Part shown: piece by piece, positions 15,072 through 20,290 of the stretch
Layout: every line of letters begins with the position of its first letter
Numbering within the stretch: position 1 is the stretch's first letter
IMG/VR virus record: IMGVR_UViG_3300025467_000013
Coordinates: 11,638 to 75,637 of that record
DNA: 64,000 nt
Origin: a virus
Direction: 5' to 3' (one strand)
Program-made: the position numbers and the translations under genes
The notes under the pieces: model-generated
Told to the model about the DNA's origin: nothing
What the model saw: the letters and a program-made list of their open reading frames with translations, nothing else
The model's database searches: none

Positions 15072-15307
15072 AATTTAAAATCGACGAATTAGAAGAATTA
15101 TATAACAAATACTTATTTGCAACAGCCGATGTTCCAACTATGAATGCTATTATGATGGAACTTAGACAACTTGAAGAAAAGTATAACTATAGGTTTACTA
15201 TCACTGCGGTTCCTAAAGAACACGACAGCGAACTATCATTTCAACTGTCATTCAAAACACCTGCAGATAGAAATTGGTTTGCATTAAAGTGGGGTGTAAG
15301 TGAGTAA
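15068..15307 (+). CDS. Small hypothetical protein (C-terminal WFALKW motif); true start probably 15068, not 15035
   Basis: ATG at 15068 overlaps the previous TGA (ATGA); MKFKIDELEE...NWFALKWGVSE. Confidence 0.7.
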   Translation: MKFKIDELEELYNKYLFATADVPTMNAIMMELRQLEEKYNYRFTITAVPKEHDSELSFQLSFKTPADRNWFALKWGVSE

Positions 15308-16313
15308 CTTATTCAAAAAAGTAGCCTGTTTTACCGATATTCATTTTGGATTAAAGTCAAACAGCGCGGTACATAATCAAGATTGTGAAGATTTTGTTGA
15401 TTGGTATATTAAAAAAGCAAAAGAGGAAGATTGTGATACAGGAATCTTTCTCGGTGACTGGCATCATAATCGTAATAGTTTGAATATTACAACAATGACT
15501 TCTAGTCTACGTGCTTTAGAAAAGTTAGGTCAAGCATTTGATCAATTTTTCTTTTTTCCAGGTAATCACGATTTATACTATAAGGATAAGAGAGATATCC
15601 ACAGCGTAGAGTTCGGCAAACATGTACCGGGAATTACAATTGTAGATAAACCTACTACCATTGGCGATGTAACCCTTTGTCCGTGGTTAGTAGGTGACGA
15701 ATGGAAATCTATAGGCAAAAAGCCTAGCAAATACTTGTTTGGGCATTTTGAATTACCACACTTCTTTATGAACGCTATGGTACAAATGCCCGATCATGGA
15801 GAAATGCAACCGGATCAGTTAACTAGATATGAAAAAGTTTTTAGCGGCCACTTTCACAAAAGACAAAATAATAATAATATTCACTATATTGGCAATGCTT
15901 TCCCACATAATTATTCAGATACTTGGGATGATGCCCGGGGAATGATGGTAATGGAATGGGGCAGTGAACCAGAATTCTTTACTTGGGATAATCAACCCAC
16001 GTTTAGAACTGTTAAACTAAGCCAACTAATCGACGATGCGGATAATTTACTCAAGGCTAAGCAACATTTAAGAGTCAATCTTGATATCGATATTAGTTTC
16101 GAAGAAGCAAGTTTTATTAAAGAAAATTTTATTACCAATTATAATTTAAGAGAATTAACTTTGATCACAGAACGGCGAGCAGTTGAATTAACTGAAGAAT
16201 TTGATGTACAATCATTCGAATCAGTGGATCAAATTGTTACCAATCAGCTTGTAAGTATTCAATCTGACAAGTATAATACTAACACACTACTAGATATCTA
16301 TAATAATTTATGA
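15300..16313 (+). CDS. gp47: Mre11/SbcD-like recombination nuclease
   Basis: Metallophosphoesterase motifs DIHFG, GDWHH, GNHD, GHF, SGHFH. Confidence 0.93.
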   Translation: MSNLFKKVACFTDIHFGLKSNSAVHNQDCEDFVDWYIKKAKEEDCDTGIFLGDWHHNRNSLNITTMTSSLRALEKLGQAFDQFFFFPGNHDLYYKDKRDIHSVEFGKHVPGITIVDKPTTIGDVTLCPWLVGDEWKSIGKKPSKYLFGHFELPHFFMNAMVQMPDHGEMQPDQLTRYEKVFSGHFHKRQNNNNIHYIGNAFPHNYSDTWDDARGMMVMEWGSEPEFFTWDNQPTFRTVKLSQLIDDADNLLKAKQHLRVNLDIDISFEEASFIKENFITNYNLRELTLITERRAVELTEEFDVQSFESVDQIVTNQLVSIQSDKYNTNTLLDIYNNL

Positions 16314-18088
16314 CTCTCCTTAAGACATTAACTGTTAAAAACTTTATGAGCGTGGGTAATCAAACCCAAGCAGTACGACTTGACTCTGAACATCTTACAC
16401 TTGTATTAGGTGAAAACTTAGATATGGGTGGCGATGATTCGGGGTCTCGTAACGGTACAGGTAAAACTACAATTCTTAACGCTTTGAGTTACGCATTATA
16501 CGGTACTGCTCTAACAAACATTAAAAAAGATAACTTGATTAACAAAATTAACAATAAAAATATGTTAGTTACGTTAACTTTTGAAAAAGATGGTAACAAA
16601 TATCGAATCGAACGCGGCAGAAAACCCAATATTCTTAAGTTCTATGTCAATGATGAAGAACAATCTAGTAACGACAATGACGAAGCACAAGGCGATAGCA
16701 GGGAAACACAAAAAGATTTTCATATCTTATTCGGTATGAAGCATCTAATGTTTAAGCATATCGTAGGGCTTAACACATACACCGAACCGTTCTTATCGAT
16801 GCGGGCAAACGATCAAAGAGAAATTATTGAAGAACTGCTCGGGATCACATTGCTTTCTGAAAAGGCTGAAGCACTTAAACTTCTAACCAAAGAAGTTAAA
16901 GACGAGATCATGCGAGAAACTGCTAACATTGAAGCAATTAAAAAGGCAAATGAAAAGATCGACCTTAGTATTAGTAGTTTGAAAACTAAACAGTCTGCAT
17001 GGAATAATCAAAACCAAGATGCAATTAATAAGATCGCACTCGCTATTGCCGACCTACAAGATGTAGATATCGAAAAAGAACTTGAATTACATGCAAAACA
17101 ATCAACATATGACGATGTAAAAAAGCAAATTACCAGTCTTAATAAAGAAAAAGCCACCCTTGAATCGGCATTAGTACAAGCACAACGTAGTGTTGATCGT
17201 TATACAAAGGAATTAGAAACACTTAGTAATCACAAATGCCACGCATGTGAACAAGACTTGCAAGATCATAAGCAAGTTGAATTATTTTCTATTGCAAATA
17301 AGAATTTACTTGAATCATTTAATTATCTTGACGAAGTAAGCGCACAATATGCAACTATTAAGACAGAACTTGATAAAATTGGCGAGATTGGCATGCGACC
17401 CGAGACATATTACGATACTTTAGAGCAAGCTATGTCGCATCAAAATAATTTATCGGTATTAGAGAACCAATTAGAAACAAAACTTAACGAAACTGATCCG
17501 TATCAAGAACAAATTGATGAGTTAACTAATACTGCATTGCAAGATGTTTCGTGGACCGAGGTTAATACCTTAACGGAAATGAAAGATCACCAAGAATTTT
17601 TGTTAAAGCTATTAACTAACAAAGATTCGTTTATCCGTAAGAAGATTATTGATCAAAATCTTGCGTATTTGAATAATCGATTAAGTTATTATCTAGATAG
17701 AATGGGATTACCACACCTTGTTGTATTTCAAAACGACTTAACTGTCGAAATTACCCAGTTAGGACAAGATTTAGACTTTGATAACTTGTCTAGAGGAGAA
17801 AGAAATCGACTTATCCTTGGATTATCATGGGCGTTTCGCGATGTATGGGAAAGTTTGTACCAAGGTATTAATTTAATGTTCGTAGACGAGCTTATTGACA
17901 ATGGATTAGATGCAATTGGCGTTGAAAATGCGTTATCTGTACTCAAGCAAATGGGCAGAGAACGTAACAAGAACATATTTTTGATTAGTCATAAGGATGA
18001 ACTAGTCGGAAGAGTTAATAACGTATTAAAGGTTATTAAAGAAAATGGGTTTACTTCGTACAGTAACGATATTGATGTAATAGAATGA
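16310..18088 (+). CDS. gp46: Rad50/SbcC-like recombination ATPase
   Basis: Walker A NGTGKT, coiled coil with CHAC zinc hook, signature LSRGE, Walker B MFVDE, ISH. Confidence 0.94.
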   Translation: MTLLKTLTVKNFMSVGNQTQAVRLDSEHLTLVLGENLDMGGDDSGSRNGTGKTTILNALSYALYGTALTNIKKDNLINKINNKNMLVTLTFEKDGNKYRIERGRKPNILKFYVNDEEQSSNDNDEAQGDSRETQKDFHILFGMKHLMFKHIVGLNTYTEPFLSMRANDQREIIEELLGITLLSEKAEALKLLTKEVKDEIMRETANIEAIKKANEKIDLSISSLKTKQSAWNNQNQDAINKIALAIADLQDVDIEKELELHAKQSTYDDVKKQITSLNKEKATLESALVQAQRSVDRYTKELETLSNHKCHACEQDLQDHKQVELFSIANKNLLESFNYLDEVSAQYATIKTELDKIGEIGMRPETYYDTLEQAMSHQNNLSVLENQLETKLNETDPYQEQIDELTNTALQDVSWTEVNTLTEMKDHQEFLLKLLTNKDSFIRKKIIDQNLAYLNNRLSYYLDRMGLPHLVVFQNDLTVEITQLGQDLDFDNLSRGERNRLILGLSWAFRDVWESLYQGINLMFVDELIDNGLDAIGVENALSVLKQMGRERNKNIFLISHKDELVGRVNNVLKVIKENGFTSYSNDIDVIE

Positions 18089-18339
18089 AATTAAGCGACG
18101 ACGATGTTCATGATGAGCTAATGGATGCTATTAGAGCTTACTATAAAGCGCATCATGAGTGGGTTAATAAAGGCACAAGACAGGCAGGAAAGCGAACTAG
18201 ATGGTGGCTTTCCGAAATTAGGCGTATAGCAAAGGCACAACGTAAGGTCATCATGGATTGGCGTTACGATATAGACGAGAAAAAGCGAATTAAAAAGGCT
18301 CAAAAACAACAGGCACAGGGAAAGAACGATGATAATTAG
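18085..18339 (+). CDS. Small basic protein, Hc1 (histone H1-like) resemblance
   Basis: KGTRQAGKRTRWWLSEIRRIAKAQRKVI resembles the KGNKAAGxRARK.L..I....K..RK.I pattern; K/R-rich; ATGA-coupled to gp46. Confidence 0.55.
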   Translation: MKLSDDDVHDELMDAIRAYYKAHHEWVNKGTRQAGKRTRWWLSEIRRIAKAQRKVIMDWRYDIDEKKRIKKAQKQQAQGKNDDN

Positions 18340-18342
18340 TTC

Positions 18343-18768
18343 GTGTCATGGTATTATAAGAAAAAACTTGTCAAAGAACTACCGCAAGATTGCGTAGGCT
18401 TTGTCTATCTCATCACGAATAATATCACTGGTCGGAAGTATATCGGAAAAAAATTAGCGCAATTCTCTAAAACAACTTATAAAACAGTGACACTTAAAAA
18501 CGGCACAAAAAAGAAAAAGAGAATTAAAACTAAGATAGAATCCGACTGGAGAGATTATTACGGTTCAAATGACCAACTAAACAAAGACGTTCAACAGTTA
18601 GGCGCAGACAAATTCACAAGAGAAATACTTTTTTATTGCAAATCTAAGGCAGAATGTAGTTATGTAGAGGCTCGAGAACAATTTAGTAGACGAGTACTGG
18701 AATCAAACGACTATTATAATGGTCATATCCAGGTTCGGGTCCACGGTTCTCATATTTTAAAATCATAA
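18343..18768 (+). CDS. GIY-YIG endonuclease (T4 endonuclease II/DenA-like, stand-alone catalytic domain)
   Basis: GFVYLITN...KYIGKK, YYGS, F.REIL, E...Q, YYN motifs; GTG start. Confidence 0.85.
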   Translation: MSWYYKKKLVKELPQDCVGFVYLITNNITGRKYIGKKLAQFSKTTYKTVTLKNGTKKKKRIKTKIESDWRDYYGSNDQLNKDVQQLGADKFTREILFYCKSKAECSYVEAREQFSRRVLESNDYYNGHIQVRVHGSHILKS

Positions 18769-18779
18769 CAGGCATTAAC

Positions 18780-19285
18780 TCTACCAATTAAGCTCGCACT
18801 GGCGTCAATAAAGTGCCCTTTAAGTTGGACCTCGGGTCTCAATGACGGAATTCCTTGTTTGGTAGCGGGGTTATAAGTCAGTATCCTTAACAGGACCACG
18901 ATCGGATGCGCCTTTAACCGGTTTGACTTATAAGAAAAAGTTTTACACAGGCTAAAAGAGAGGCTAGCAGCCTCACGACTGCACTGATGTTAGTGTATTT
19001 TTGCAGTCCGCCGTCATTATGAAAACAGAATGAGTAGGTACCGGATGACCGCCTACGGAATGTATTATAAAGATGACAAAAATTAAATTTATTGTTATTT
19101 TTATAGTGCATTGTAGTTCTAACACTAAGTGATATTGTTCAACTCGGATAATGTCTTGTAGTTTCGCTCGGCAACGGGCGAAATGTGATTGAACAATCTG
19201 GATAATATCTAAAAGTGCTTCGCACAATCATTATAAAAATAATAGTTCGAGCGATAGCGAAGAACAGATGAACGTAGTTCATCTT
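18780..19285 (+). ncRNA. Putative large, ornate structured non-coding RNA (unassigned family)
   Basis: At least 12 helices found by eye, with strand-specific G-U wobbles, a GNRA loop and 3 candidate pseudoknots, in a ~550-nt gap with no credible ORF (see findings). Confidence 0.75.
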
Positions 19286-19293
19286 AACACTGT

Positions 19294-19301
19294 TATAAAT
19301 A
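19294..19301 (+). promoter_or_regulatory. Late promoter TATAAATA
   Basis: Perfect T4 late consensus 20 nt upstream of the ATG at 19322, followed by an AGGA RBS. Confidence 0.75.
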
Positions 19302-19321
19302 ATTAATGTTAGGAAATACGT

Positions 19322-20050
19322 ATGCATCTTAGAGAAATAACAAACATTAATGCCCCGAATAAAGATCTCGAAGAAGGAATATTCTCGTTATTTGGCTTCA
19401 TGAGAGGAATAATAATGACTCTTGGTGTAGGACAACCATTATACGATGCATATAAAAATATTCAATCTGCAAAACAACAATACCCCGAAGGTAATGAGCA
19501 GAATAGAATAATCGATCATGAACTAACTGCATGTGCTTTAAAGATCGCAGGCATCTTAGCAGCAAGTAAATTGTTTGCGTCGATAGCTGATTTCGTAAAA
19601 ATATCAAAATTATTTCCTAGACGATCGGTTATTGCAGGATTCATTGACTTTGTGTTGTCACTTCCGATCGGCGCAGCACAAACAACTGCATTAGGATTGC
19701 TTTATAGGTTATTAAACACCCAATCAGGACAAACTTTCCTTGGACAATACATTACAGGGTTAGCGTTGAGCAGCCAAATTCCTGAAAATACACCGATGTA
19801 CGAGAAGTTTATCGGTGGATCAATACGACAAGCAGCTGAGTTTATTAATAAATCACTTAAAAACTCCACTGGAGTTGATTTAGGTGCATCATCTGGTATA
19901 AGCAAATCCGAACCTCAAGGAGGACAACCAGCTCCAGAACCCGAAGTTACTCCGAAGCCAAGAGTCGCTAATCCAAATGAACCAGTACCGACTACGACCG
20001 GTAATGTGTTTACACGGGATCCTGCAACTGGTGAATTGATGTTTAAGTAA
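19322..20050 (+). CDS. Late hypothetical protein, possible internal head/ejection protein with hydrophobic helices
   Basis: Own late promoter; N-terminal MHLREI...LEEG resembles prohead-protease (L-x-E) propeptides; hydrophobic segments and a Pro-rich tail. Confidence 0.55.
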   Translation: MHLREITNINAPNKDLEEGIFSLFGFMRGIIMTLGVGQPLYDAYKNIQSAKQQYPEGNEQNRIIDHELTACALKIAGILAASKLFASIADFVKISKLFPRRSVIAGFIDFVLSLPIGAAQTTALGLLYRLLNTQSGQTFLGQYITGLALSSQIPENTPMYEKFIGGSIRQAAEFINKSLKNSTGVDLGASSGISKSEPQGGQPAPEPEVTPKPRVANPNEPVPTTTGNVFTRDPATGELMFK

Positions 20051-20056
20051 TGTTGA

Positions 20057-20290
20057 TTACAGTAATGGTAGTTGACTTTTAACAGTTGTATCAATATTTT
20101 CCTTAACAACTTCGTACATTGCTTCGCGATCATCGGGGCCATATACATGAAGAAGCTCGTAAAAAGTAACACCGCCTCTCATATACCAGCTTAATCTAGC
20201 TAATTCTTCTTTGAATTCTTTTAATTCTGTATCTAACCTAACTAGATAGCCGTTAATTTCCGACGATGCTAATCTAATTAGGTGCGAACG
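20057..20290 (-). CDS. Tail assembly chaperone C-terminal extension (gp51-like), probably reached by -1 frameshift from the upstream gene
   Basis: Open -1 frame RSHLIRLASSEINGYLVRLDTELKEFKEELARLSWYMRGGVTFYELLHVYGPDDREAMYEVVKENIDTTVKSQLPLL*, with no ATG/RBS at its 5' end; T-TTT-TTC slippery heptamer at 20296-20290. Confidence 0.7.
   Translation of the reverse strand, partial: RSHLIRLASSEINGYLVRLDTELKEFKEELARLSWYMRGGVTFYELLHVYGPDDREAMYEVVKENIDTTVKSQLPLL

What the first reader, a model, noticed from the sequence alone, without database searches (positions are those of the whole stretch)
18780..19285. Unannotated ~510-nt ornate, multi-pseudoknot RNA downstream of a GIY-YIG nuclease
Seen in sequence: in an otherwise gene-dense genome, this ~550-nt gap has no credible ORF but is almost fully pairable. 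Helices: AATGACGG 18841-48/CCGTCATT 19011-18 (long range); TTATAAGTCA 18871-80/TGACTTATAA 18924-33; GCACT 18796-800/AGTGC 18812-16; GACC-TCG-GGTC 18828-38; TCCT-TAAC-AGGA 18884-95; ATCGG 18901-05/CCGGT 18918-22; GAGGCT 18960-65/AGCCTC 18969-74; GACTGCA 18977-83/TGCAGTC 19002-08; GTAGGT 19034-39/GCCTAC 19051-56; a 21-bp stem 19059-79/19092-112; ATTGTTCAA 19134-42/TTGAACAAT 19189-97; TTTCGCTCG-GCAA-CGGGCGAAA 19162-83 (GNRA loop); AGATGAAC-GTA-GTTCATCT 19266-84. Candidate pseudoknots: CTACCAA 18781-87 with loop TTGGTAG 18859-65; loop GGCGT 18801-05 with loop GCGCC 18908-12; loop TTAGTGT 18990-96 with ACACTAA 19122-28. The non-Watson-Crick pairs in these stems are G-U on the + strand (four in the 21-bp stem alone), which points to selection on + strand RNA rather than DNA cruciforms. 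Established: phages carry large ornate RNAs (GOLLD, ROOL) and self-splicing introns, but I could not see group I, group II, RNase P or tmRNA signatures. Inference: a possibly new class of large phage ncRNA (ribozyme, RNP scaffold or RNA cage).
Basis: partly seen in the sequence, partly recalled or inferred. Interest (0 to 1): 0.95.

Follow-up and report, generated by a model that had tools for sequence, protein, structure and literature searches.

The report
Full-length Polynucleobacter-1 twin-box phage RNA
The gene-free 550 bases behind a small nuclease gene of this uncultured freshwater T4-like phage encode a real, knotted non-coding RNA of about 500 bases; its first third is an orphan motif catalogued in 2010, and the uncatalogued rest carries one short word twice for a reader that is still unknown.

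Summary
The observation largely holds. Window 18781-19284 (+) encodes a large structured RNA. On 86 relatives under 88% identical, an 18-helix model is 93.6% paired (76.6% shuffled, about 40% slid), and 73 of 90 pairs change on both sides. G.U outnumbers A.C 7:1, which fixes the + strand.

It is not a wholly new class. Bases 18791-18933 are Rfam RF01718, Polynucleobacter-1 (85.3 bits, cut-off 37; function unknown). The other 360 nt match no Rfam family.

- The 8-bp long-range helix and ATTGTTCAA/TTGAACAAT are not conserved.
- GGCGT/GCGCC is inconclusive.
- The 21-bp stem is a lineage-specific insertion.

The boxes match in 119/119 phage copies through six variants.

The same RNA sits in Polynucleobacter chromosomes beside a 188-aa tyrosine recombinase. 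The GIY-YIG family occurs in 460 cultured-phage records; four of those genomes, read whole, lack the RNA, so the nuclease does not need it.

Function is unknown. My best reading is a stand-alone scaffold RNA that shows two identical recognition units. This scan has found the family many times on other DNA.

The parts
18343..18768 (+). Neighbouring gene: 141-aa GIY-YIG nuclease with the catalytic domain only (SegE-type; phrog_447)
   Evidence: Pfam PF19835 at 3e-33 over residues 3-129. Full-length match to phrog_447. Syntenic after Mre11/Rad50 in most of the 80 loci.
18781..19284 (+). The whole RNA, about 504 nt here (about 450 nt in most relatives, which lack the inserted hairpin)
   Evidence: nhmmer profile match at 18780-19341. 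Covariation model. The 5' limit is set by PK1 and the 3' limit by hairpin P14.
18791..18933 (+). 5' domain, equal to Rfam RF01718 Polynucleobacter-1. P1 18796-800/18812-16; P2 18825-31/18835-42; P3 18853-56/18867-70; P4 18875-80/18924-29; P5 18885-86/18893-94; P6 18900-05/18918-23
   Evidence: 85.3 bits, model positions 1-141 of 141. Helices 1-7.
18781..18865 (+). Pseudoknot PK1: 5' leader 18781-87 pairs with the P3 loop 18859-65
   Evidence: Compensated variants include GCGGU/GCCGC, AACGGU/GCCGUU, UCACCAA/UUGGUGA and CGCCAA/UUGGCG. Mean helix 5.87 bp against 5.06 +/- 0.06 with permuted partners.
18960..19008 (+). P7 (18960-63/18971-74) and P8 (18977-88/18997-19008)
   Evidence: helices 8 and 9. 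All 12 pairs of P8 change on both sides.
18990..19128 (+). Pseudoknot PK-A: P8 loop 18990-96 pairs with 19122-28
   Evidence: helix 10: 97.8% paired, 7/7 pairs with changes on both sides.
19013..19054 (+). Pseudoknot PK-B: 19013-17 pairs with 19045-49, inside the loop of P9 (19036-39/19051-54). Holds the near-invariant GGUACCGG..ACCGCC
   Evidence: helices 11 and 13. Invariant columns listed.
19028..19119 (+). P10 (19028-29/19118-19), which encloses P9 and the insertion site
   Evidence: helix 12: 98.8% paired, five pair types at each position.
19059..19112 (+).
   Evidence: Present in only 3-4 of 86 sequences, where it keeps pairing (helix 5).
19140..19155 (+). Twin unit 1: CA-A-CUC-GGAUAAU-G-UC (box at 19146-52)
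19162..19183 (+). P11 hairpin between the twin units
   Evidence: helix 14.
19194..19209 (+). Twin unit 2: CA-A-UCU-GGAUAAU-A-UC (box at 19200-06)
   Evidence: Box identical to box 1 in 119/119 unique phage copies. Mutual information between 19146 and 19200 is 1.00 bit.
19215..19284 (+). 3' end: P12 19215-18/19222-25; A-rich linker; P13 19245-48/19262-65 with inner 19251-52/19257-58 (GA/GAA internal loop, GNNA loop); terminal hairpin P14 19266-73/19277-84
   Evidence: helices 15-18.
19294..19301 (+). TATAAATA, like a T4 late promoter, lying between the RNA and the next gene (ATG at 19322). Not part of the RNA
   Evidence: Read. ATAAATA is conserved in the alignment. The consensus itself is from my own knowledge of T4.

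Best explanation
This is a gene for a stand-alone, trans-acting structured RNA of about 500 nt. It is the full-length form of the Rfam motif Polynucleobacter-1.

Shown:
- It is read as + strand RNA.
- It folds into about 18 conserved helices with three pseudoknots.
- It ends in a hairpin (P14) that lies before the next gene's own late-type promoter.
- It carries two 16-nt units that no conserved helix pairs, of the form nnA-CUC-N7-G-nn and nnA-UCU-N7-A-nn. Their variable letters stay identical to each other while they change between lineages.

Inferred:
- It is made by read-through from the Mre11-Rad50-GIY-YIG operon, because only 13 nt separate the stop codon from PK1.
- The knotted body is a scaffold. 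It presents the two units to two copies of one partner, or to two equivalent sites of it.
- The partner is most likely read by base pairing, because the word itself is free to change as long as both copies match.
- The four fixed differences between the units are all transitions. One RNA partner could therefore pair with both units through G.U wobble.

My odds: real full-length Polynucleobacter-1 RNA, 0.9. Works in trans rather than as a cis regulator, 0.7. The twin units are base-pairing recognition elements, 0.35.
For: Rfam: RF01718 at 18791-18933, 85.3 bits, full model. The same family is hit in 14 of 20 relatives and in a Polynucleobacter MAG contig, L301 (91.9 bits).

Structure: 93.6% of cells paired against 76.6% shuffled and 36-42% slid. 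73 of 90 pairs change on both sides. Covariation score 0.484 against 0.174, reached by 0 of 500 shuffles. PK1 is supported without an alignment.

Strand: G.U 7.4% against A.C 1.1%. Fold z-score -4.5 on + and -2.0 on -.

Twin boxes:
- Identical in 119/119 phage copies through six variants.
- The same flanks, ACUC and AUCU, occur in 15 bacterial copies with quite different words (AGCGAAA, GGAGAAA, AGAGAAA, AUCAAAA). 13 of 15 are identical.
- Further in-step positions lie at offsets -2, -1, +12 and +13.
- The box type changes at least 28 times on the RNA tree.
- No column inside the RNA co-varies with the boxes.

Independence from neighbours:
- The RNA occurs beside unrelated genes in L115 and L157.
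- In bacteria it lies beside DUF6641 and a 188-aa tyrosine recombinase.
- A late-promoter-like TATAAATA lies between the RNA and the next ATG, so the RNA is not that gene's late leader.
Against: No partner was found in the RNA, in 840 kb of flanks, in the window, or as symmetric sites in five host genomes. The boxes are only 54 nt apart, so recombination could carry both as one block. The count of 28 changes may therefore overstate independent double changes. A coevolving dimeric protein, or a DNA-level role for the repeat, would also keep the boxes equal. Neither transcript ends nor a promoter were seen. The 3' hairpin lacks a clear U tract, and the terminator scan did not call it.
Confidence: 0.5

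Rival explanations
1. RNP scaffold or protein sponge. The two units are pseudo-symmetric binding sites for a homodimeric protein of the phage or the host, and the RNA sequesters or assembles it.
For: There are two equal units, each with a constant core (A-YYY). The fold is large with many invariant unpaired bases. P13 has a GA/GAA internal loop of the kind proteins often bind; that last point is my own reading.
Against: A protein reader would have to change specificity each time the word changes, which is at least 28 times on the tree. No GIY-YIG residue tracks the box type: maximum mutual information is 0.24 of 0.99 bits. The words differ completely between phage and bacterial copies.
Confidence: 0.15
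2. Ribozyme. The knotted core is catalytic, and the twin units are substrate-binding or processing sites.
For: Size, three pseudoknots and near-invariant stretches such as GGUACCGG..ACCGCC fit the pattern of large ribozymes. That comparison is from general knowledge.
Against: There is no match to any ribozyme family in Rfam, even at E up to 10. The hammerhead-like look of P13 fails, because UGAU lies inside the helix. No chemistry can be tested here.
Confidence: 0.1
3. Replication primer or origin RNA, of the ColE1 RNA II or T4 R-loop origin type. The structured transcript forms a hybrid with its own DNA and primes synthesis in the phage and in the excised bacterial island.
For: Its own template DNA is the one partner that always stays complementary. 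The RNA is shared by a phage and a mobile island, both of which must replicate.
Against: There is no GC-skew inflection at the site. Cross-pairing of unit 1 RNA with unit 2 DNA would give C.A mismatches, by my own reasoning. Nothing in the model explains why the boxes must be equal. There is no AT-rich unwinding element except the lineage-specific hairpin.
Confidence: 0.08
4. Guide or bridge RNA for the neighbouring minimal DNA enzymes. The twin units pair with two symmetric half-sites or two homologous duplexes. They aim the GIY-YIG nuclease in phages and the 188-aa tyrosine recombinase in islands, both of which lack DNA-binding domains.
For: GIY-YIG lies directly upstream in 92 of 95 loci found by the RNA alone. 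In bacteria a catalytic-domain-only recombinase follows the RNA. The units are programmable-looking, and a variable gene slot lies downstream.
Against: The GIY-YIG family is in 460 cultured-phage records. Melnitz, phiM12, ACP17 and P-HM1 carry it with no gap and no RNA anywhere in their genomes. The RNA occurs without either enzyme in L115 and L157. No complementary or palindromic target was found. Linkage within one phage clade can be plain synteny. FimB/FimE-size recombinases work without a guide (my knowledge).
Confidence: 0.05
5. A DNA-level element (cruciform, origin, recombination site), or a cis-acting 3' UTR or terminator with no function of its own.
For: It lies at the end of an operon and beside a variable region. 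The direct 7-bp repeat has the length of a tyrosine-recombinase crossover region (my knowledge).
Against: The strand asymmetry of wobble pairs is 7:1. Pseudoknots with compensatory changes have no meaning in duplex DNA. 500 nt with three knots is far more than a terminator needs. In bacteria the RNA stands apart from, and divergent to, the upstream gene. The phages have no recombinase here.
Confidence: 0.04

Closest known systems
Polynucleobacter-1 RNA motif (Rfam RF01718; Weinberg et al. 2010, Genome Biol 11:R31, PMC2864571)
   Same: Bases 18791-18933 match the whole 141-position model at 85.3 bits. The habitat is the same (fresh water, Burkholderiales). The place is the same, downstream of a phage-like gene family, which the authors noted. 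Function is unknown in both.
   Different: The catalogued motif is only the first third. Here it continues for about 360 nt more, with two further pseudoknots, a 5' leader knot, the twin units and a terminal hairpin. The 2010 paper found it in no purified phage. Here it sits in hundreds of T4-like phage contigs.
Large orphan structured RNAs (GOLLD, ROOL, HEARO, OLE, raiA)
   Same: Size class, many helices and pseudoknots, association with phages or mobile elements, unknown biochemical role.
   Different: There is no covariance-model match to any of them. None is known to me to carry two co-varying identical words.
Guide RNAs of mobile-element enzymes (IscB/TnpB omega RNA, IS110 bridge RNA)
   Same: A structured RNA gene abuts a small DNA-cutting or DNA-joining enzyme gene and has short variable segments in a conserved scaffold.
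   Different: The enzyme families are different. The nuclease family is common without the RNA, and the RNA occurs without the enzymes. No target complementarity was found. The two variable segments are identical to each other rather than specifying two different sites.
ColE1 RNA II / T4 R-loop origin transcripts
   Same: A structured transcript of some hundreds of nt in a replicon that could prime on its own template.
   Different: No origin signature was seen here. Those RNAs have no twin boxes, and the T4 origin transcripts are not known for a conserved fold (my knowledge).

Membership tests
Rfam RF01718 Polynucleobacter-1 | Covariance-model score at or above the curated gathering score, over the whole model | tested here: met
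   85.3 bits against 37, model positions 1-141 of 141, E 1e-16.
Rfam RF01718 Polynucleobacter-1 | Consensus helices kept by compensatory changes in relatives | tested here: met
   Helices 1-7. P1, P4 and P6 are 98-100% paired with 4-5 covarying pairs each. P2 is weaker (77-82%) in a MAFFT alignment.
Rfam RF01718 Polynucleobacter-1 | Lies downstream of the GOS11034 / PSSM2_218-like gene family (Weinberg 2010 supplement) | not tested
   It lies downstream of a GIY-YIG gene that is common in T4-like cyanophages. I did not check that PSSM2_218 is that gene.
GOLLD, ROOL, HEARO, group I/II introns, RNase P RNA, tmRNA | Match to the family covariance model, or an ARAGORN call for tmRNA | tested here: not met
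   There was no hit at gathering scores over 64 kb. No hit to any of them appeared at E up to 10 over 18600-19500. ARAGORN found no tRNA or tmRNA.
Guide-RNA systems (omega RNA / bridge RNA type) | RNA gene directly adjoins the effector gene | tested here: met
   92 of 95 RNA-found loci have GIY-YIG directly upstream, and 66 of 80 GIY-found loci have the RNA within 60 nt. In bacteria the recombinase lies roughly 0.3-0.8 kb downstream of the RNA.
Guide-RNA systems (omega RNA / bridge RNA type) | The effector family depends on the RNA (co-occurs with it wherever it is found) | tested here: not met
   460 cultured-phage records carry the GIY-YIG family. Four genomes read whole have no RF01718, no profile hit and no credible twin-box pattern.
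Guide-RNA systems (omega RNA / bridge RNA type) | The variable segment is complementary to a target or to the ends of the element | tested here: inconclusive
   No consistent complement was found in the loci, the window or five host genomes. Seven nucleotides give little power, and targets in other genomes were not searchable.
T4 Seg-type homing endonuclease (the neighbouring gene) | GIY-YIG catalytic domain | tested here: met
   PF19835 at 3e-33. The VY, YIG, R, E and N motifs are visible.
T4 Seg-type homing endonuclease (the neighbouring gene) | C-terminal DNA-binding domain (about 200-220 aa in all) and sporadic, mobile distribution | tested here: not met
   The protein is 141 aa, almost all of it catalytic domain (residues 3-129). 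It is syntenic after Mre11/Rad50 in most of the 80 loci at 70-82% identity, which exceeds its neighbours. The lengths of Seg proteins are from my own knowledge.
ColE1 RNA II-type primer RNA | Persistent RNA-DNA hybrid at an origin, processed to a primer | not testable with these tools
   Only an indirect check was possible: there is no GC-skew inflection.

The most novel reading that the evidence does not exclude
The twin-box RNA is a programmable guide for minimal DNA enzymes that lack DNA-binding domains. These are the 141-aa GIY-YIG nuclease in T4-like phages and the 188-aa tyrosine recombinase in Polynucleobacter islands. Its two identical units pair with the two symmetric half-sites of a DNA site, or with two homologous duplexes, and so direct cutting or cassette exchange in the variable gene slot next to the RNA.
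Probability: 0.05. Interest if true: 0.95.

Novelty: new variant of a known kind. Interest (0 to 1): 0.66.

Why it matters
Large RNAs with intricate, conserved folds are rare, and most known ones are ribozymes or the cores of major machines. This one is widespread in freshwater T4-like phages and in the chromosomes of cultured Polynucleobacter strains. Even so, only a 141-nt piece is catalogued, and nothing is known of its role.

Two words that are free to change but must stay equal are an unusual and directly testable constraint: mutate one box, then both. Because cultured Polynucleobacter isolates carry the RNA, the question can be taken to the bench now.

For annotation, the Rfam model should be extended. 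The GIY-YIG neighbour is also widely mislabelled 'NAD synthetase'.

Tried and rejected
- Permissive Rfam search of 18600-19500: nothing credible beyond RF01718. The same held for a bacterial copy.
- ARAGORN: no tRNA or tmRNA.
- blastn of 18343-19400 against 50,697 cultured-phage records: no match.
- Public sequencing runs: no RNA holder listed. The holders are freshwater metagenome DNA runs, two of which may be the source sample.
- Internal partner for the boxes: no co-varying column, no exact complement, no consistent wobble-tolerant complement.
- Partner in flanks: only the trivial antisense, plus a G/U-rich stretch antisense to rad50 that does not co-vary.
- Word or complement enrichment in the window: none (8 and 4 occurrences against about 7 and 6 expected).
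- Palindromic box sites in five host genomes: at control level.
- GIY-YIG residues tracking the box type: none.
- DUF6641 as a hidden GIY-YIG: no similarity. No DUF6641 in the phage fragment and no paper on it.
- Reading the boxes as -10 promoter hexamers: fits GATAAT, but the bacterial words (AGCGAAA and others) do not fit.
- Reading the units as a small ORF: position 1 would be a synonymous third codon position in both units, which would not explain the perfect coupling.
- Hammerhead-like reading of P13: rejected, because UGAU lies inside the helix.
- Twin-box pattern in cultured phages: one strict hit in Melnitz lies antisense inside a 650-aa CDS with no other RNA feature. About 0.1 such hits are expected by chance in four genomes.
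- PDB sequence search with the nuclease: no hit.
- GC-skew inflection at the RNA: none.

Full report
**Where it lies.** The window is part of a 75.6-kb IMG/VR virus record. The genes around the finding are Mre11-like (15300-16313), Rad50-like (16310-18088), an 84-aa basic protein, and a 141-aa SegE-type GIY-YIG protein (18343-18768). The gap follows, then a 242-aa ORF (19322-20050) and a T4 baseplate protein on the other strand. This is an uncultured T4-like phage. Its DNA turns up in freshwater metagenomes.

I collected relatives in two independent ways:
- by the nuclease protein: more than 577 IMG/VR contigs, of which 80 were kept;
- by an exact 17-nt word of the RNA: at least 119 loci.

A profile search gave 150 full-length copies. 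Of these, 119 are unique and 86 are less than 88% identical. The whole gap is conserved, except for 19059-19112.

**The fold.** On the 86-sequence MAFFT alignment A1, an 18-helix model is 93.6% paired. Shuffled columns give 76.6%, and partners slid by 1-3 columns give 36-42%. 73 of 90 pairs change on both sides. The covariation score is 0.484 against 0.174, and 0 of 500 shuffles reach it.

Highlights:
- P8 has 12 bp, and all 12 covary.
- The P8 loop forms a 7-bp pseudoknot with 19122-28.
An alignment-free test shows many compensated variants, and 114 of 119 copies have a helix of 5 bp or more.

Not conserved are the 8-bp long-range helix, whose 3' strand is used by the new knot, and ATTGTTCAA/TTGAACAAT. 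GGCGT/GCGCC is inconclusive. The 21-bp stem exists in only 3-4 of 86 copies, so it is a lineage-specific expansion hairpin in the loop closed by P10.

G.U cells make up 7.4% of all cells. A.C cells, which would be G.U on the other strand, make up 1.1%. The selected molecule is therefore + strand RNA.

**What it is.** Rfam places 18791-18933 in RF01718, Polynucleobacter-1, at 85.3 bits (cut-off 37) over the full model. Nothing else in Rfam matches the remaining 360 nt, even permissively, and there is no tRNA or tmRNA.

The only paper in the library that names the motif is Weinberg et al. 2010. Its supplement says three things:
- most examples lie downstream of a gene family with possible homology to a cyanophage P-SSM2 gene;
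- no example was found in a purified phage.

So the finding is the full-length form of a known orphan motif. The model hits 14 of 20 relatives. In some others the 3' domain is recognisable but the 5' domain is not.

**The twin units.** Two 7-nt boxes, 19146-52 and 19200-06 (GGAUAAU here), are identical in all 119 unique phage copies. They run through six variants: AGAUAAU 54, GGAUAAU 33, GCAUAAU 23, GGAUGAA 4, GGAUGAU 3 and AGAUGAU 2. Mutual information between the first box positions is the full 1.00 bit, and no other column comes near.

Anchoring on the constant flanks shows a 16-nt unit, nnA-CUC-N7-G-nn against nnA-UCU-N7-A-nn. Further in-step positions lie at -2, -1, +12 and +13. The four fixed differences between the units are all transitions.

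On a tree of the RNA built without the boxes, the box type changes at least 28 times. Because the boxes are 54 nt apart, recombination could move both as one block, so this number is an upper view of independent events.

I found no partner:
- not inside the RNA;
- not in 840 kb of flanks;
- not enriched in the window;
- not as symmetric sites in five host genomes.

**Beyond phages.** A pattern scan of species-representative genomes, followed by a profile search, found the RNA in Polynucleobacter and other Burkholderiales. Some copies lie on megabase-size contigs of cultured isolates. RF01718 scores 91.9 bits on one copy.

The usual layout there is a divergent DUF6641 gene, then the RNA, then a 188-aa tyrosine recombinase that is catalytic domain only; the recombinase is absent from some loci, such as L278. 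The bacterial RNAs keep the ACUC and AUCU flanks but carry quite different words, equal in 13 of 15 copies.

**Is the nuclease a partner?**
- Within this phage clade the linkage is tight. 92 of 95 loci found by the RNA alone have the nuclease directly upstream. But the whole neighbourhood is syntenic.
- The RNA also occurs beside unrelated genes.
- The nuclease family (phrog_447, often labelled 'NAD synthetase') is in 460 cultured-phage records.
- In Melnitz, phiM12, ACP17 and P-HM1 it is followed at once by other genes. Read whole, those genomes have no RF01718 hit, no profile hit and no credible twin-box pattern.
- No nuclease residue tracks the box type.

The enzyme looks like a regular neighbour, not an obligate partner. 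It is also not a typical homing endonuclease. It is 141 aa, better conserved than its neighbours, and fixed in place.

**How it most likely works.** The following is shown: a + strand RNA with a conserved knotted body, two equal units that no conserved helix pairs, a terminal hairpin, and a late-promoter-like TATAAATA between the RNA and the next gene. The RNA is therefore not that gene's late leader.

The following is inferred:
- It is made by read-through from the upstream operon, because the leader knot begins 13 nt after the stop codon.
- It acts in trans.
- The body holds the two units so that each binds one copy or one equivalent site of a single partner.
- Base pairing is the simplest reader. 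The word may change freely if both copies match, and the fixed differences between the units are wobble-compatible.

I give 0.9 to the identity, 0.7 to action in trans and 0.35 to the pairing mechanism. The rivals are a dimeric protein reader (0.15), a ribozyme (0.10), a replication primer (0.08), a guide for the neighbouring enzymes (0.05) and a DNA-level or passive element (0.04).

**Novelty and earlier notes.** This scan has reported the same family many times on other DNA, under the name twin-box RNA. I re-derived the fold, the boxes, the bacterial layout and the weak case for a nuclease partnership on this window's own relatives. Those notes are leads, not support.

In the published record that I could search, only the 141-nt motif exists. 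I class the finding as a new variant of a known kind, of fairly high interest. It is a rare large RNA with a clean, testable constraint, and it is present in cultured bacteria.

Noticed in passing
window 19285-20277, and the matching stretch in 90 related loci: The stretch between the RNA's 3' end and the conserved baseplate gene is a variable slot. It is 140 to 3563 nt long (median 1.2 kb), and its + strand ORFs fall into 49 clusters, most of them singletons. The 242-aa ORF here has no Pfam or PHROG match.
   Followed up: partly
L301:3626-5640, and L230, L290, L294, L303, L315, L264, L213: In Polynucleobacter and other Burkholderiales the RNA is flanked by a divergent DUF6641 gene (145-170 aa; phrog_31551) and a 188-aa tyrosine recombinase that is catalytic domain only, with R, HxxR, H and Y present. 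No paper in the library mentions DUF6641.
   Followed up: partly
window 18343-18768: The GIY-YIG gene belongs to a family (phrog_447; 'T4-LIKE GC: 213' in P-HM1) that many phage records label 'NAD synthetase', which looks like a carried-over misannotation. It is found in 460 cultured-phage records, mostly cyanophages.
   Followed up: partly
window 19294-19301: TATAAATA, the T4 late-promoter consensus, lies 20 nt before the ATG of the next gene. It is conserved in most relatives directly after hairpin P14.
   Followed up: no
window 18085-18339: The 84-aa lysine/arginine-rich ORF between Rad50 and the nuclease gives a weak, sub-threshold match to the histone-like Hc1 family (E 0.003, 17.9 bits against a cut-off of 23.5). 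It is kept in most relatives at only 33-53% identity.
   Followed up: no
L014, L016, L047, L048, L056, L063 (about 210-230 nt after the nuclease stop): In these relatives the 3' twin-box domain is recognisable, but neither Rfam (checked in L014, L047 and L056) nor my profile recognises the roughly 210 nt before it. The 5' domain seems to have been replaced or is highly divergent.
   Followed up: no
L115:1576-2011 (-) and L157:282-617 (-): These RNA copies lie in other contexts with no GIY-YIG gene. In L115 the neighbours are an aminotransferase and a metallophosphoesterase. In L157 a DUF5591-like protein lies upstream.
   Followed up: partly
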